64,000 bases of DNA from Clostridia bacterium. GTDB lineage: Bacteria > Bacteroidota > Bacteroidia > Bacteroidales > 4484-276. Both the position numbers and the translations under genes were made by a program. Position 1 is the first letter of the stretch. Each line of letters starts with the position of its first letter. This document shows, in pieces, positions 11,619 through 46,209 of the stretch. The notes under the pieces were generated by a model. The model searched no databases and was not told the DNA's origin. It saw only the letters and a program-made list of their open reading frames with translations. The stretch lies in NCBI GenBank assembly GCA_009928785.1, contig SABY01000005.1, positions 779 to 64,778 on the forward strand, written 5' to 3'.

Positions 11619-11628
11619 GGTTATCAAC

Positions 11629-11712
11629 CAACAAATTCCAACTCGCAACAAATTCCAACTTTCAACAAATTCCAACTCGCAACAAATCAAATCCCCAACA
11701 AATCCAAAAATT
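11629..11712. repeat. 17-bp tandem repeat CAACAAATTCCAACTYK (3 good copies plus 2 degenerate)
   Basis: Copies at 11629, 11646 and 11663, decaying into CAACAAATCAAATCCCC and AACAAATCCAAAAATT. It is the reverse-complement partner of the TTGGAATTT motifs at 11757-11790. Confidence 0.8.
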
Positions 11713-11724
11713 AAAAAATCCAAT

Positions 11725-11762
11725 AACCAAAATCATTACGGGGTTCTGAATTTTGGTTTTTG
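11725..11762 (+). terminator. AT-rich hairpin plus T-run downstream of the histidine kinase gene
   Basis: AACCAAAAT-16 nt-ATTTTGGTT followed by TTTTGG. Confidence 0.45.
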
Positions 11763-19013: not shown

Positions 19014-19255
19014 CGTAAACGCCTGGGCTATGAATCGTAAACGCCTGGGCTATGAATCGTAAACGCCTGGGCTATGGATCGTAAACGCCTGGGCTATGGA
19101 TCGTAAACGCCTGGGCTACGGATCGTGAACGCCTGGGCTATGAATCGTAAACGCCTGGGCTACGGATCGTGAACGCCTGGGCTATGAATCGTAAACGCCT
19201 GGGCTATGGATCGTAAACGCCTGGGCTATGAATCGTAAACGCCTGGGCTATGAAC
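19014..19255. repeat. 22-bp tandem repeat x 11 (CGTRAACGCCTGGGCTAYGRAT)
   Basis: Eleven exact-length head-to-tail units counted by hand. The first overlaps the palindrome CCCAGGCG-TAAA-CGCCTGGG (19008-19027). Confidence 0.95.
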
Positions 19256-19272: not shown

Positions 19273-19500
19273 AAATCTAAAATCTAAAATCTAAAATCTA
19301 ACATCTAAAATCTAAAATCTAACATCTAACATCTAAAATCTAACATCTAAAATCTAAAATCTAACATCTAACATCTAAAATCTAAAATCTAAAATCTAAA
19401 ATCTAAAATCTAACATCTAACATCTAAAATCTAACATCTAAAATCTAAAATCTAAAATCTAAAATCTAACATCTAACATCCAACATCTAACATCTAACAC
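19273..19500. repeat. 7-bp tandem repeat x 32 with two unit states (AAAATCT / AACATCT)
   Basis: Units counted by hand. State string: AAAACAACCACAACCAAAAACCACAAAACCCC. Unit 30 is AACATCC. Confidence 0.95.
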
Positions 19501-41264: not shown

Positions 41265-41280
41265 TTTAAAGTCTTTTTCT

Positions 41281-42650
41281 TTTTCACCACAGAGGCACGG
41301 AGACACAAAGGAGAAAGCAAAATCCTTTTCACCACAGAGGCACGGAGACACAGAGATTATTTTTTTTTCTTCTTCTTCCTTTGTGCCGTTGTGTCTTTGT
41401 GGTTTTTCTTTGTTGTTTTTCACCACAGAGGCACGGAGACACGAAGGAGAAAGCAAAACCGTTTTCACCACAGAGGCACGAAGACACAGAGATTTTTTTT
41501 TCTTCTTCCTTTGTGCCGTTGTGTCTTTGTGGTTTTTCTTTGTTGTTTTTCACCACAAAGTCACGGAGGCACAAAGGAGAAAGCAAAACCGTTTTCACCA
41601 CAGAGTCACGAAGTCACAGAGATTTTTTTTTCTTCTTCTTCCTTTGTGCCGTTGTGTCTTTGTGGTTTTTCTTTGTTGTTTTTCACCACAGAGGCACGGA
41701 GGCACAAAGGAGAAAGCAAAAGCCTTTTCACCACAGAGGCACGAAGTCACAGAGATTATTTTTTTTCTTCTTCCTTTGTGCCGTTGTGTCTTTGTGGTTT
41801 TTCTTTGTTGTTTTTCACCACAGAGGCACGGAGGCACAGAGAAAAACAAAAGCCTTTTCACCACAAAGTCACGGAGACACGAAGGAGAAAGCAAAACCGT
41901 TTTCACCACAGAGGCACGAAGTCACAGAGATTTTTTTTTCTTCTTCTTCCTTTGTGTCGTTGTGTCTTTGTGGTTTTTCTTTGTTGTTTTTCACCACAGA
42001 GGCACGGAGGCACAGAGAAAAACAAAAGCCTTTTCACCACAGAGGCACAGAGGCACGGAGGAGAAAGCAAAACCGTTTTCACCACAGAGGCACGAAGTCA
42101 CAGAGATTATTTTTTTTTCTTCTTATTCCTTTGTGCCGTTGTGTCTTCGTAGTTTTTCTTGGTTGTTTTTCACCACAGAGGCACGGAGGCACAGAGAAAA
42201 ACAAAAGCCTTTTCACCACAGAGGCACGAAGTCACAGAGATTATTCCTTTTTCTTCTTCTTCCTTTGTGCCGTTGTGTCTTTGTGGTTTTTCTTTGTTGT
42301 TTTTCACCACAGAGGCACGAAGACACGAAGGAGAAAGCAAAACCGTTTTCACCACAAAGGCACGAAGTCACAGAGATTTTTTTTTCTTCTTCTTCCTTTG
42401 TGCCGTTGTGTCTTCGTGGTTTTTCTTTGTTGTTTTTCACCACAGAGGCACGGAGGCACAGAGAAAAACAAAAGCCTTTTCACCACAGAGGCACGGAGGC
42501 ACAGAGAAAAACAAAAGCCTTTTCACCACAGAGGCACGGAGGCACGAAGGAGAAAGCAAAACCGTTTTCACCACAGAGTCACGAAGTCACAGAGATTTTT
42601 TTTTCTTCTTCTTCCTTTGTGCCGTTGTGTCTTCGTGGTTTTTCTTTGTT
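41281..42650 (+). repeat. Hierarchical repeat array: 22 x 26-nt core in three module types (8 a, 5 b, 9 c), the c modules forming terminator-like hairpins
   Basis: The core TTTTCACCACAGAGGCACGGAGGCAC was counted 22 times. The 3' arm CCTTTGTGCCGTTGTGTCTTTGTGGT was counted 9 times. Module order: ac ac ac ac bac bac bc ac bbac. Confidence 0.95.
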
Positions 42651-43836: not shown

Positions 43837-44340
43837 TTATTTTGTCAGCAACTCTTGCTTAATGATGCGTTCGAATGCTGCTTTGTCTTTGTATCCACGG
43901 TCCATGCGTGGCTGGCCTTCGGCGGGGATGTACAAAAATGCAGGAATGCTGCTGATCTGAAACACCGCTGCCAGCTCTTTCTCCGCCTCTGTGTCGATTT
44001 TATAAACCTTGAGTTTTCCTGTGTAATCCTGTGCTATCTCTTCCAGCACGGGAGCTACCATTTTGCAAGGCTTGCACCAGTCGGCGTAGAAGTCGATGAT
44101 GGCCGGTTCGCTACCTTCGTAAACCCACTCTTGCGGATTTTTTTCATAATCCCAGATTTTTTCTTTAAAAGTTTTGGCGGTAAGAAACTCAGGCGAACTA
44201 CTTGCTTTTTTGTCACCGCTCACTGTGGCTGTGCTTTCGGCCAATGCTGTTTGCTTTTCGTCACCGCTGGCACTGTTACAAGCTGTGCTGCTAAAGGCTA
44301 CCAAAAGGCCAATGATTGTTATCAAAACTGTTTTTCTCAT
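43837..44340 (-). CDS. Thioredoxin-family lipoprotein (paralog of the downstream gene)
   Basis: Lipobox VAFSSTAC followed by DFYADWCKPCKMVAPVLEEI. 167 aa. Confidence 0.85.
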   Translation of the reverse strand: MRKTVLITIIGLLVAFSSTACNSASGDEKQTALAESTATVSGDKKASSSPEFLTAKTFKEKIWDYEKNPQEWVYEGSEPAIIDFYADWCKPCKMVAPVLEEIAQDYTGKLKVYKIDTEAEKELAAVFQISSIPAFLYIPAEGQPRMDRGYKDKAAFERIIKQELLTK

Positions 44341-44387
44341 GTTAATTATCGGTGTTTAGTTATAAATACTATTTTATTAATACGCTG

Positions 44388-44395
44388 CAAAACTA
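44388..44395 (-). promoter_or_regulatory. -7 box TAGTTTTG (minus strand) for the thioredoxin pair
   Basis: Plus strand reads CAAAACTA, 48 nt upstream of the ATG at 44340. Confidence 0.4.
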
Positions 44396-44437
44396 TAATT
44401 TTTTTAATAATTAAATCGTTTCAGTATCACTTTTAAG

Positions 44438-44445
44438 TATTTTTG
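44438..44445 (+). promoter_or_regulatory. -7 box TATTTTTG upstream of the IS1595-like fragment ORF
   Basis: Matches TAnnTTTG, 80 nt before the ATG at 44525. Confidence 0.35.
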
Positions 44446-44524
44446 CAAAAACCTTGCTAAAAATGAATTCTACCATTATTAATGGTCAGAATGACAGAAA
44501 ACGATTACAAATGAATTTATAGAA

Positions 44525-44932
44525 ATGAAGCATATCATCGATCAACTCAAGCCTGTGGAATTTGAAACCGCCTTTTCGACCAACGAACAATGTCTGGAAT
44601 TTTTGGCAGACGAAAAGTGGAAGGATGGTTTTGTGTGTCGCAAGTGTGGCAATACCAACTACTGTAGTGGCAAAACGCCTTTTTCGCGGCGCTGTACGCG
44701 CTGCAAGCACGACGAGTCTGCTACAGCCAACACCATTTTCCACCGTTGCAAAATCCAACTCTCCGAAGCCTTTGCCATCGCATACAATGTGTGCAAAACC
44801 CCTGATATTTCAACCTATGAGCTGGCACGCCGATTGGAAAAACGCCAGATGACCTGCTGGAAATTCAAAAAAGTAATCACCGACTGCATCAGCCGCAATG
44901 GCAGTTTGCAGTTTGTGCAATCAATCGAATAG
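44525..44932 (+). mobile_element. IS1595-family transposase N-terminal zinc-ribbon/HTH fragment (no DDE domain)
   Basis: 135 aa with FSTNEQCLEFLADEKWKDGFVCRKCGNTNYCSGKTPFSRRCTRCKHDESATANTIFH (CxxC...CxxC transposase zinc ribbon), then a helix-turn-helix-like DISTYELARRLEKRQMTCWKF. The ORF stops where the catalytic domain should begin and is followed by heptad repeats. Confidence 0.65.
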
Positions 44933-44933
44933 G

Positions 44934-45157
44934 GGCAGTCCACAGTTGGCAGCCAGCAGCCAGCAGCAGACAGTCCACAGTTGGCAGTCAGCAGCCAGCA
45001 GCCAGCAGCCAGCAGTCAGCAGCCAGCAGTTGGCAGTCAGCAGCCGACAGTTCACAGTTGGCAGTCAGCAGCCAGCAGTCAGCAGCCAGCAGTTGGCAGT
45101 CAGCAGCCAGCAGCCAGCAGCCAGCAGCCAGCAGTCAGCAGTTGGCAGTCAGCAGCC
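44934..45157. repeat. 7-bp tandem repeat x 32 (NRCAGYN: AGCAGCC, AGCAGTC, AGCAGTT, GGCAGTC, CACAGTT, GACAGTC ...)
   Basis: Parsed by hand in strict 7-nt register from GGCAGTC (44934) to AGCAGCC (45151-45157). Confidence 0.9.
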
Positions 45158-45178
45158 GACAATGAAAGCGATGCCAGC

Positions 45179-45262
45179 AAACAACAAACAACAAACAACA
45201 AACAACGAACAACGAACAACGAACAACAAACAACAAACAACGAACAACAAACAACGAACAAC
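45179..45262. repeat. 7-bp tandem repeat x 12 with two unit states (AAACAAC / GAACAAC)
   Basis: State string AAAAGGGAAGAG read by hand. Confidence 0.9.
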
Positions 45263-45296
45263 AAAAATAATTCGACAGGCGTGGGGTTAAAAAATT

Positions 45297-45304
45297 TACT
45301 TTTG
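45297..45304 (+). promoter_or_regulatory. -7 box TACTTTTG for sucD
   Basis: Matches TAnnTTTG, 32 nt before the ATG at 45337 and 35 nt after the last heptad unit. Confidence 0.5.
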
Positions 45305-45336
45305 CCCAAATTTTAAAAATTAAAAAATAAATCATC

Positions 45337-46209
45337 ATGAGTGTTTTGGTAGATAAGAATTCAAGGGTAGTAGTGCAGGGTTTTACCGGTAGCGAAGGGA
45401 CTTTTCACGCACAGCAAATGATCGAGTATGGCACCTGGGTGGTGGGTGGGGTTACGCCCGGCAAAGGCGGCCAATCGCACCTCGACCGGCCTGTTTTTAA
45501 TACTGTGCGCGAGGCTGTGGAGCAGGAAGGTGCCAACGTGTCGGTGATTTTTGTGCCACCGGCTTTTGCCGCTGATGCTATTATGGAAGCTGCCGATGCC
45601 GGAATTGGGGTGGTCATCTGCATCACCGAAGGCATTCCCACCAAAGACATGATGATGGTAAAGGAATTTTTGAAAGATAAAAAAACGCGCCTGGTCGGCC
45701 CCAACTGTCCGGGTGTAATCACACCGGGCGAAGCCAAAGTTGGTATCATGCCTGGTTTTATTCACAAACCCGGACGTGTGGGTATTGTGTCCCGCTCAGG
45801 AACGCTTACCTACGAAGCTGTCGATCAGCTCACCAAAGCCGGTCTGGGGCAAACTACTGCCATAGGCATTGGTGGCGACCCGATAATTGGTACTACTACC
45901 CGCGACGCCATCGAGCTGCTGATGAATGATCCGAAAACTGAAGGTATTGTGATGATTGGTGAAATTGGCGGAACCATGGAAGCCGACGCTGCTGAATACG
46001 TGAAGGCCAACAACCACAAGCCCGTGGTAGGTTTTATTGCCGGCGCTACTGCTCCCAAAGGCCGCACCATGGGACATGCCGGAGCTATTATCGGCGGAAA
46101 AGACGATACCGCCGAAGCCAAGAAAAAAATTATGCGCGAATGCGGCATCCACGTCGTTGACTCGCCCGCAGATATTGGCAAAAAAATGTCAGAACTGCTC
46201 AAAGCCTGA
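45337..46209 (+). CDS. sucD: Succinate-CoA ligase subunit alpha
   Basis: [33 protein letters not shown], the phospho-His context GHAGAII, and IGIGGDP. Confidence 0.95.

What the first reader, a model, noticed from the sequence alone, without database searches (positions are those of the whole stretch)
44934..45304. Two more heptad arrays (32 x NRCAGYN, then 12 x RAACAAC) between an IS1595 fragment and the sucD promoter
Directly after the stop of the IS1595-like ORF, 32 units in strict 7-nt register run from 44934 to 45157. They include AGCAGCC, AGCAGTC, AGCAGTT, GGCAGTC, CACAGTT and GACAGTC. A 21-nt spacer follows. Then come 12 units of AAACAAC/GAACAAC with state string AAAAGGGAAGAG (45179-45262). 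Thirty-five nt later lies TACTTTTG (45297-45304), the same -7 box sequence found after the 19273-19500 array, 32 nt before the sucD ATG.

Together with 19273-19500 this makes three heptad arrays in one 64-kb window, two of them with two-state units and two of them just upstream of a TACTTTTG box. This looks like a recurrent genomic idiom rather than chance. All reading frames stay open across the arrays, giving artefact ORFs of 130, 111, 69 and 67 aa.
Basis: seen in the sequence. Interest (0 to 1): 0.55.

Follow-up and report, generated by a model that had tools for sequence, protein, structure and literature searches.

The report
Two hypervariable 7-base repeat arrays
The two 7-base repeat runs upstream of sucD are real, but they belong to about 530 fast-changing heptanucleotide arrays in this uncultured Bacteroidales genome, which lie against stop codons and not promoters, so this is a good example of a known but unexplained repeat class and not a promoter device.

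Summary
Observation confirmed exactly. There are 32/32 NRCAGYN heptads at 44934-45157, a 21-nt spacer, 12 RAACAAC heptads (AAAAGGGAAGAG) at 45179-45262, and TACTTTTG 32 nt before the sucD ATG.

The promoter reading is not supported:
- The genome holds about 530 period-7 loci (about 1% of its DNA).
- A TAnnTTTG box lies near 6.0% of array flanks, against 5.9 +/- 1.0% of random intergenic points.
- In co-oriented spacers, 64/117 arrays start within 25 nt of the upstream stop codon and only 10/117 lie within 25 nt of the next start.
- Each unit family has a fixed polarity pointing away from the nearest gene. The two arrays here follow that rule and face each other.

Same-genus orthologous spacers keep the sucD promoter module. 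One carries about 1.5 CAGY units plus about 4 RAACAAC units, another about 1.5 plus about 10. A third has no arrays at all. Strains 97-98% identical differ in unit order from the fifth unit on.

I read these as slippage-driven heptanucleotide microsatellites (LSSR/STRR type) filling the unconstrained DNA between a stop codon and a conserved promoter module. The "IS1595 fragment" is a conserved gene (dN/dS about 0.05). The scan has reported this repeat class before, in this genome and in at least eight others.

The parts
44525..44932 (+). 135-aa zinc-ribbon (IS1595-type) ORF. It is a conserved stand-alone gene whose TAG stop lies 1 nt before the first array.
   Evidence: Pfam Zn_ribbon_IS1595, E = 4.7e-10. 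Syntenic orthologues in two same-genus genomes are 87-88% identical in protein and 80-83% in DNA. dN/dS is 0.04-0.06 at dS 0.7-1.6.
44934..45157 (+). CAGY array: 32 heptads NRCAGYN, in the sense orientation of the upstream ORF and beginning 1 nt after its stop codon.
   Evidence: 32/32 units fit the pattern, with TRF scores 188-246. As a single strand it folds into a long slipped hairpin of -96 kcal/mol, z = -7. Orthologous sites in G003 and G007 hold only about 1.5 units. Unit order differs between strains 97-98% identical.
45158..45178 (+). 21-nt spacer, probably three decayed heptads. It keeps the two arrays in one 7-nt register (45179-44934 = 245 = 35 x 7).
   Evidence: Read directly from the sequence. 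The first 7 nt, GACAATG, differ by one base from the GACAGTN units. That the spacer is decayed heptads is an inference.
45179..45262 (+). RAACAAC array: 12 heptads, state string AAAAGGGAAGAG. It belongs to the most abundant family in the genome. Its polar form, GTTGTTT, is on the - strand and points away from sucD.
   Evidence: Units and state string. TRF score 141. The family has 86 TRF arrays. The RNA is unstructured, z = 0. About 4 and about 10 units sit at the same site in G003 and G007. Family polarity.
45263..45336 (+). Conserved sucD promoter/leader module. It has an A-rich TAATT element at its upstream edge, the -7 box TACTTTTG at 45297-45304, and an A/T-rich leader.
   Evidence: This block aligns across G000, G003, G007 and G005 while everything upstream of it differs. 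The box and an AAAAA(CC)TTAAT element recur upstream of sucD in other genera of the family. The transcription start is not mapped.
45337..46209 (+). sucD (succinyl-CoA ligase alpha subunit).
   Evidence: Pfam CoA_binding 1.2e-28, Ligase_CoA 4.9e-24. Orthologues are 72-97% identical in protein.

Best explanation
The two arrays are ordinary members of a genome-wide population of heptanucleotide microsatellites of the LSSR/STRR type. They grew in place by replication slippage from short proto-repeats that already lay in the ancestral spacer. Together they now fill all the unconstrained DNA between the stop codon of the zinc-ribbon gene and the upstream edge of a conserved sucD promoter module.

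The CAGY array is in the sense orientation directly after the stop. The RAACAAC array is in the opposite polarity, next to the sucD upstream region. That is the arrangement these families take throughout the genome, with polarity pointing away from the nearest gene.

The arrays are not part of the promoter, and neither flanking gene needs them.

Shown: periodicity, abundance, placement, polarity, the orthologous seeds and the strain variation. Inferred: slippage as the engine (helped for CAGY by its quasi-palindromic GCAGC hairpins), and neutrality.
For: - **Abundance.** Period 7 and its multiples dominate the genome's tandem repeats, giving 530 merged loci and 48 kb.
- **Placement in co-oriented spacers.** 64/117 arrays begin within 25 nt of the upstream stop and 10/117 lie within 25 nt of the next start. 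Free placement predicts 20-36 near the stop, even with a protected promoter zone of 0-100 nt; none of 20,000 simulations reached 64.
- **Placement in other spacers.** In convergent spacers 29/40 arrays lie at a stop. In divergent spacers 1/15 lies within 25 nt of a gene.
- **Polarity.** After stops it is fixed per family: CAGTTCT 16/16, CAGTCCT 7/7, GTTGTTT/CGTTGTT 12/12, AAATTCC 10/10. Arrays nearest a start turn the same 5' side to the gene in 31 of 36 cases.
- **Promoter boxes.** There is no enrichment of TAnnTTTG beside arrays.
- **Orthologous spacers.** G003, and an identical metagenome contig, read stop + GGCAGTCCACA + about 4 degenerate RAACAAC + promoter module. G007 has about 1.5 CAGY + about 10 RAACAAC. 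G005 has both genes in other neighbourhoods, no arrays, and the same -7 box and leader.
- **Strain variation.** Three Logan contigs from other samples are 97-98% identical in the flanks and share units 1-4, then diverge in unit order and number. All of them break inside the array.
- **Structure.** The CAGY strand folds as a slipped hairpin, z = -7.
- **Published parallel.** The same placement and polarity rule is published for the heptamers of Xanthomonas and Nostoc (PMC4692102).
Against: - Slippage alone explains neither why the same few unit families recur at dozens of loci nor why they are polar and abut stop codons.
- The 11-nt seed GGCAGTCCACA is kept in three species whose synonymous sites are saturated. 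That hints at constraint, or at repeated collapse of arrays held uniform by concerted evolution.
- 25 of 60 RAACAAC runs elsewhere flank a dispersed hairpin element in a fixed orientation. At least that family may spread with a mobile element and not arise locally.
- All the genomes compared are short-read MAGs, in which tandem arrays can be collapsed or misordered.
- There are no expression data.
Confidence: 0.7

Rival explanations
1. Promoter-linked device. The arrays upstream of TAnnTTTG boxes would tune or phase-vary transcription of the downstream gene, for instance as an UP-like A-rich element or a variable-length spacer.
For: - Two arrays in this window end 3 nt and 34 nt upstream of a TACTTTTG box.
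- A RAACAAC array has been kept at this position in three same-genus species.
- Copy number varies between strains.
Against: - Boxes are not enriched beside arrays: 6.0% against 5.9%.
- Where a gene start lies within 100 nt of an array, 19/72 have a box between them, against 22% for all genes.
- Arrays are under-represented in divergent spacers.
- The array lies upstream of the whole conserved promoter module, not between promoter elements.
- G005 keeps the same box and leader 20 nt after another gene's stop, with no array.
- TACTTTTG is the commonest box variant, at 25%.
Confidence: 0.08
2. Functional transcript element. The polar, sense-oriented arrays abutting stop codons would be 3'-UTR modules, for example binding platforms for an RNA-binding protein, factor-dependent termination or insulation sites, or stabilisers. 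Their start-proximal counterparts would act on the opposite strand.
For: - Polarity is strict within each family, and adjacency to stops is far beyond random placement.
- The same rule holds in Xanthomonas and Nostoc, where most such repeats are transcribed (PMC4692102).
- The seed after the stop is conserved in three species despite saturated synonymous sites.
- Terminator-like hairpins are scarcer after arrays (7/133) than after array-free stops (245/2317).
Against: - The families share no sequence or composition rule: G>C in 90 arrays and C>G in 50.
- Units and lengths turn over between strains.
- The arrays are absent from orthologous sites in a close relative.
- CAGT-type motifs are not clearly enriched after array-free stops: 440 against 357.
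Confidence: 0.15
3. Relic of a mobile composite element. The RAACAAC array would have arrived with the dispersed REP-like hairpin that is embedded in RAACAAC runs elsewhere, and the hairpin was later lost here.
For: - The genome holds 43 hairpin cores. 25 of 60 RAACAAC runs have one within 60 nt, always on the same strand, and often as tandem hairpin-plus-array modules.
- G003 has a short GC-rich palindrome inside its RAACAAC remnant at the orthologous site.
Against: - The window has no hairpin core, even allowing 3 mismatches.
- 35 of 60 runs lack one.
- The array is shared by three species at the same site, so any insertion would be old.
- This idea does not cover the CAGY array.
Confidence: 0.15
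4. Assembly artefact. The arrays or their lengths would be products of short-read MAG assembly.
For: - Logan contigs from other samples end inside the array.
- 52 arrays touch contig ends, and 178 sit in terminal spacers of contigs.
Against: - The array is spanned in this contig, with interspersed variant units that make most stretches unique.
- Independent assemblies reproduce its first 4-16 units and its exact junction with the stop codon.
- Related arrays occur in many independent genomes.
Confidence: 0.03

Closest known systems
Heptameric intergenic simple-sequence repeats of Xanthomonas (GGGAATC) and Nostoc (GGGGA(C/T)T), Rehm et al. 2015, PMC4692102
   Same: - The unit is 7 nt.
- The repeats are spread across the genome and over-represented in non-coding DNA.
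- They are preferred between co-oriented ORFs and rare between divergent ORFs.
[quoted passage not shown]
- Unit number varies widely between close relatives at the same sites.

All of these were reproduced here.
   Different: - The units here have no G-tracts and no G-quadruplex potential.
- There are dozens of unrelated unit families, not one.
- Arrays are far longer: 12 and 32 units here and up to about 90 in the genome, against a preference for four.
- The host is a Bacteroidales MAG.
Long simple sequence repeats with 5-11 nt units, heptamers over-represented (Mrazek, Guo and Shah 2007, as summarised in PMC4692102)
   Same: Heptamer periodicity dominates the genome's tandem repeats. The proposed engine is polymerase slippage, favoured for this unit size.
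   Different: I know that survey only through its citation in PMC4692102. This genome's density, about 530 loci and 1% of the DNA, looks extreme.
TAACTGA direct repeats of Beggiatoaceae, Cyanobacteria and some Bacteroidetes (MacGregor 2015, PMC4679880)
   Same: - These are intergenic heptamer direct repeats mixed with other heptamers.
- Long arrays (up to 43 copies) occur in Bacteroidetes.
- Strain differences are mostly indels in 7-nt steps.
- Contigs break in the repeats.
- Relatives have shorter, repeat-free spacers.
- An ACTGA/CAGT core is shared with this genome's CAGT families.
   Different: In the Beggiatoa genome most sets sit a few nt upstream of start codons in forward orientation and have 2-6 copies. 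Here the dominant position is directly after stop codons.
STRR (short tandemly repeated repetitive) heptanucleotides of heterocystous cyanobacteria (Mazel et al. 1990; from my own knowledge, and mentioned as Calothrix heptanucleotides in PMC4692102)
   Same: Several families of tandem heptanucleotides are dispersed through intergenic DNA. Their function is unknown.
   Different: The phylum and the unit sequences differ. I made no direct comparison.
Promoter or leader SSRs of contingency (phase-variable) loci in host-adapted pathogens
   Same: A tandem repeat with strain-variable copy number lies close to a promoter.
   Different: - The repeat lies outside the conserved promoter module.
- The gene is housekeeping (sucD).
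- The units are 7 nt, not 1-5.
- The arrays are genome-wide and associated with stop codons.

Membership tests
Heptanucleotide intergenic tandem repeats (LSSR / STRR type) | Head-to-tail units of 7 nt, many copies, far beyond chance | tested here: met
   32/32 and 12/12 units are in strict register. TRF scores are 141-246.
Heptanucleotide intergenic tandem repeats (LSSR / STRR type) | Genome-wide excess of period 7 over neighbouring periods, mostly non-coding | tested here: met
   TRF rows: 325 of period 7, 310 of period 14 and 142 of period 21, against 5 of period 6 and 38 of period 8. These merge into 530 loci, of which only 61 are mostly inside called ORFs.
Heptanucleotide intergenic tandem repeats (LSSR / STRR type) | Copy number and unit order vary between strains and species at the same site | tested here: met
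   Orthologous sites hold about 1.5 CAGY units against 32, and about 4, about 10 and 12 RAACAAC units. Strains 97-98% identical differ from unit 5 on. The caveat is that all are short-read assemblies.
Heptanucleotide intergenic tandem repeats (LSSR / STRR type) | Polar placement: within about 50 nt of a stop on the coding strand, or upstream of a start on the non-coding strand (Rehm et al. 2015) | tested here: met
   The CAGY array is in sense 1 nt after the stop. The RAACAAC array has its polar strand (GTTGTTT) on the non-coding strand, 74 nt upstream of sucD.
G-quadruplex-forming GGGNATC repeats | Runs of three or more G in each unit | tested here: not met
   No unit of either array holds a G-run.
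Phase-variable promoter SSR (contingency locus) | Repeat lies between promoter elements, in the leader or in the 5' coding region, so that copy number changes expression | tested here: not met
   The array ends at the upstream edge of the module that is conserved across relatives. A relative with no array keeps the same box and leader. The effect on expression cannot be tested here.
REP/BIME-like composite (hairpin embedded in RAACAAC runs) | Dispersed hairpin core within or beside the array | tested here: not met
   The window has no copy at up to 3 mismatches. The core is present beside 25 of 60 RAACAAC runs elsewhere.
IS1595 fragment / pseudogene (neighbouring ORF) | Remnant of a transposase evolving without constraint, with DDE-domain debris or terminal repeats | tested here: not met
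   Only the zinc-ribbon domain matches. dN/dS is 0.04-0.06 across three syntenic orthologues. The DNA after the stop is array, or in G005 a convergent gene.

The most novel reading that the evidence does not exclude
The strict family-specific polarity and the abutment to stop codons are not by-products of slippage. On this reading the heptad arrays of this lineage are laid down or maintained by a directional process tied to gene ends. That process could be transcript-end function (factor-dependent termination, insulation, or a periodic RNA-binding platform) or a dedicated polar mechanism that generates repeats. The pair at this locus, with the two arrays facing each other, would then be a 3'-end module of the zinc-ribbon gene meeting an upstream module of sucD.
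Probability: 0.12. Interest if true: 0.65.

Novelty: new member of a known kind. Interest (0 to 1): 0.3.

Why it matters
Bacterial heptanucleotide repeats have been known since 1990 and were surveyed in 2007 and 2015, but their origin and role remain unexplained.

This locus gives a clean natural series: about 1.5 units against 32 for one family, and 0, about 4, about 10 and 12 for the other, all around an unchanged promoter module. This genome has about 530 arrays with strict polarity and stop-codon abutment.

That makes the lineage a good system for two questions: whether such arrays are neutral slippage products or transcript-end elements, and why 7 nt is favoured.

For annotation, the practical lessons are:
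- These arrays create spurious ORFs.
- They break assemblies.
- They should not be read as promoter parts.

Tried and rejected
- **Promoter-box enrichment.** I tested this and rejected it.
- **Shared 3' motif.** I looked for CAGT-type seeds after array-free stop codons. There is only a weak excess, 440 against 357.
- **Purity gradient.** I looked for a 5'-to-3' gradient of unit purity in stop-adjacent arrays as a sign of directional growth. It is not significant (p = 0.12).
- **Intrinsic terminators.** I looked for them following arrays. They are not enriched, and if anything are rarer (7/133 against 245/2317). None lies in 44300-45450.
- **Rfam.** The region gives only sub-threshold plant miRNA noise.
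- **Metagenome scans.** An exact-match scan with the right flank found nothing. A looser pattern found only a contig identical to the G003 arrangement.
- **sucD look-up.** The look-up by identity of the sucD protein found nothing.
- **NCBIfam.** It gives no name for the zinc-ribbon ORF.
- **Literature.** One search failed on a term-length rule. The STRR search returned only passing mentions.
- **RAACAAC in the order.** The pattern search shows runs of five or more perfect units in only 5 of 121 genomes sampled. Its built-in control is not clean, because the reversed unit is a rotation of the same repeat.

Full report
**The observation**

- From 44934 to 45157 there are 32 consecutive heptads, and every one fits NRCAGYN. 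Columns 3-5 are invariant CAG. There are nine unit types, with AGCAGCC the commonest.
- A 21-nt spacer follows. Then come 12 RAACAAC heptads at 45179-45262 with the state string AAAAGGGAAGAG.
- TACTTTTG lies at 45297-45304, 32 nt before the sucD ATG at 45337.
- Tandem Repeats Finder reports both arrays on its own, and also a 49-nt higher-order period in the first.
- The spacer is exactly three heptads long, so the two arrays share one 7-nt register (245 = 35 x 7). Its first seven bases differ by one base from a GACAGTN unit.
- The four artefact ORFs exist.

The statement that all frames stay open is only partly right. The three + frames are open in both arrays, and all six are open in the RAACAAC array. 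Each - frame of the CAGY array has 2-5 stops.

**The genome-wide picture**

The window lies in a 4.47-Mb, 326-contig draft genome. sucD relatives and earlier notes place it in the Lentimicrobiaceae-like Bacteroidales.

TRF on the whole genome gives these row counts:

| Period | Rows |
|---|---|
| 6 | 5 |
| 7 | 325 |
| 8 | 38 |
| 14 | 310 |
| 21 | 142 |

- Merged, the period-7 rows and their multiples make 530 loci covering 48 kb.
- RAACAAC is the most abundant family, with 86 arrays. CAGT-type units (CAGTTCT, CAGTCCT, GGCAGT and others) form another large group.
- Arrays of 84 bp or more occur 2.8 times per 64 kb, so three in this window is average.
- TACTTTTG makes up 25% of all -7 boxes upstream of genes. 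Two arrays sharing that box therefore says nothing.

**Testing the promoter idea**

I built a rough gene map from codon-usage-scored ORFs: 3009 genes, 83% coding. It reproduces the genes around the finding.
- A TAnnTTTG box lies within 60 nt of 6.0% of array flanks, against 5.9 +/- 1.0% of random intergenic points.
- Where a gene start lies within 100 nt beyond an array, 19 of 72 have a box in between. The rate for all genes is 22%.
- Arrays are scarce in divergent spacers (31 arrays for 380 such spacers) and commoner in convergent ones (64 for 347).

**What the arrays are tied to**

Placement of arrays of 50 bp or more:

| Spacer type | Arrays | Result |
|---|---|---|
| Co-oriented | 117 | 64 begin within 25 nt of the upstream stop; 10 lie within 25 nt of the next start |
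| Convergent | 40 | 29 lie at a stop |
| Divergent | 15 | 1 lies within 25 nt of a gene |

- In co-oriented spacers the median distance to the stop is 14 nt, and to the start 162 nt.
- Free placement within each spacer predicts 20-36 stop-adjacent arrays, even with a protected promoter zone of up to 100 nt. None of 20,000 simulations reached 64.
- After stop codons each family has one orientation: CAGTTCT 16/16, CAGTCCT 7/7, AAATTCC 10/10, AAGTTAG 9/9, AAGGTAG 9/9, and GTTGTTT plus CGTTGTT 12/12.
- With polarity defined that way, arrays whose nearest gene boundary is a start codon turn the same 5' side to the gene in 31 of 36 cases. This set is independent of the definition.

Arrays therefore point away from the nearest gene, whichever end of the gene that is. 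Rehm et al. published exactly this rule for the heptamers of Xanthomonas and Nostoc (PMC4692102).

The present locus obeys it twice. The CAGY array is in sense 1 nt after the stop of the zinc-ribbon ORF. The RAACAAC array has its polar strand (GTTGTTT) on the strand opposite to sucD. The two arrays thus face each other.

**The orthologous spacers**

Same-genus genomes keep the order thioredoxin genes, zinc-ribbon ORF, sucD.

| Genome | Arrangement between the stop and sucD |
|---|---|
| G003 (and an identical metagenome contig) | stop, GGCAGTCCACA (about 1.5 CAGY units), about four degenerate RAACAAC units, a short GC palindrome, then the promoter module |
| G007 | about 1.5 CAGY units, about ten RAACAAC units, then the module |
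| G005 | the two genes lie in different neighbourhoods, with no arrays |

- In G005 the zinc-ribbon ORF is followed at once by a convergent gene. sucD follows another gene's stop by 20 nt, with the same TACTTTTG box and leader.
- The alignment shows a conserved block running from an A-rich TAATT element to the ATG. Everything upstream of it varies.
- In other genera of the family the same box and an AAAAA(CC)TTAAT element recur. They are preceded by unrelated, often heptad-like, sequence.

Both arrays therefore grew in place from seeds that predate the species. The 32-unit expansion is specific to this lineage, and neither gene needs the arrays.

**Variation between strains**

The exact zinc-ribbon protein is encoded on contigs from three other samples, whose flanks are 97-98% identical to the window.
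- All three contigs stop inside the array.
- They share units 1-4 and then differ from the window and from one another. One has about four extra units before the AGCAGCA GACAGT landmark.
- These are short-read contigs, so this is supporting evidence, not proof.

**Mechanism**

As a single strand the CAGY array folds into a long slipped hairpin of two-pair steps: -96 kcal/mol, z = -7, with no shuffle as stable. The cause is that GCAGC is a near-palindrome, as in CAG repeats. This plausibly favours slippage and expansion. The RAACAAC array is unstructured (z = 0).

I found none of the following:
- a terminator-like site in the spacer;
- an Rfam family;
- an excess of terminators after arrays (7/133 against 245/2317);
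- a common motif after array-free stops;
- a 5'-to-3' purity gradient.

My reading, at about 0.7 confidence, is slippage-driven microsatellites filling the unconstrained DNA between a stop codon and a conserved promoter module.

Slippage does not explain the recurrence of a few families, their polarity, or the conservation of the 11-nt seed across species whose synonymous sites are saturated. I keep a transcript-end function open at about 0.15.

For RAACAAC there is a further lead. The genome holds 43 copies of a hairpin element embedded in RAACAAC runs. The hairpin is always on the same strand as the run (25 of 25 runs that have one within 60 nt), and it often forms tandem modules. The window has no copy.

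**The neighbouring ORF**

The "IS1595 fragment" matches only the transposase zinc ribbon, and NCBIfam gives it no name. Its three syntenic orthologues are 87-88% identical in protein, with dN/dS 0.04-0.06 at dS 0.7-1.6. It is a conserved gene under purifying selection, not decaying IS debris.

**Comparison with what is known, and verdict**

- The arrays meet every feature I could test of the heptanucleotide LSSR/STRR class, including the placement rule of Rehm et al.
- They do not meet the G-quadruplex feature of the Xanthomonas family.
- They do not meet the anatomy of phase-variable promoter repeats.
- MacGregor's TAACTGA work (PMC4679880) already reports long mixed heptamer arrays in Bacteroidetes, 7-nt indels between strains, and repeat-free spacers in relatives.
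- RAACAAC runs of five or more perfect units were found in only 5 of 121 genomes sampled across the order, so this lineage is unusually rich in them.
- Earlier follow-ups of this scan reached the same class assignment for other pieces of this genome and for at least eight other genomes, including polar arrays after stop codons. I re-tested those claims here and did not rely on them.

The finding is real and well described, but its promoter interpretation is not supported. It is a new member of a known, still unexplained kind.

Noticed in passing
Genome G000, e.g. C159:67-350, C190:57693-57950, C193:2420-2700, C104:5935-6075 (not in the window): The genome holds 43 copies of a hairpin element of about 62 nt (core GACCCATCGGGGAAATCCCGAGAG). 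The copies are embedded in RAACAAC runs, always on the same strand as the run. They often form tandem hairpin-plus-array modules, and some run right up to an ATG.
   Followed up: partly
window 44525-44932: The zinc-ribbon ORF called an IS1595 fragment is under strong purifying selection (dN/dS about 0.05). It stays beside the thioredoxin genes in same-genus genomes, and related DNA lies elsewhere in the family. It may be a domesticated transposase N-terminal domain of unknown function.
   Followed up: partly
window 45263-45336 and loci L082-L092: An A-rich element, AAAAA(CC)TTAAT(T), lies about 36-47 nt upstream of the sucD -7 box and is conserved across genera of the family. The RAACAAC array stops at its edge. 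It could be a regulator site or an upstream promoter element.
   Followed up: no
window 19014-19254 and 19273-19500: Eleven copies of a 22-nt unit lie directly beside the 32-unit AAAATCT/AACATCT heptad array, which ends 3 nt before a TACTTTTG box. A similar CCTGGGCTATGAAT-containing unit of period 28 sits at the end of contig C80.
   Followed up: no
window 41272-42650; L093:504-639: The 1.37-kb hierarchical repeat block between the GYD and WbqC genes is represented by a single module of about 135 nt in a strain 97% identical. The expansion is therefore specific to this strain.
   Followed up: partly
Genome G000, stop-downstream regions: Hairpin-plus-T-run terminator-like sites follow only about 10.6% of stop codons, and 5.3% of stop-adjacent arrays. 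Intrinsic terminators seem rare in this genome.
   Followed up: partly
window 11628-11732: Two adjacent short-period arrays, a 17-nt unit x3.5 and a 16-nt unit x3.3, both C/A-rich. I did not examine them.
   Followed up: no
Genome G000, e.g. C104:6030-6074: Several RAACAAC arrays abut the ATG directly in sense orientation, so some genes would be translated from a leader made purely of AAACAAC repeats.
   Followed up: no
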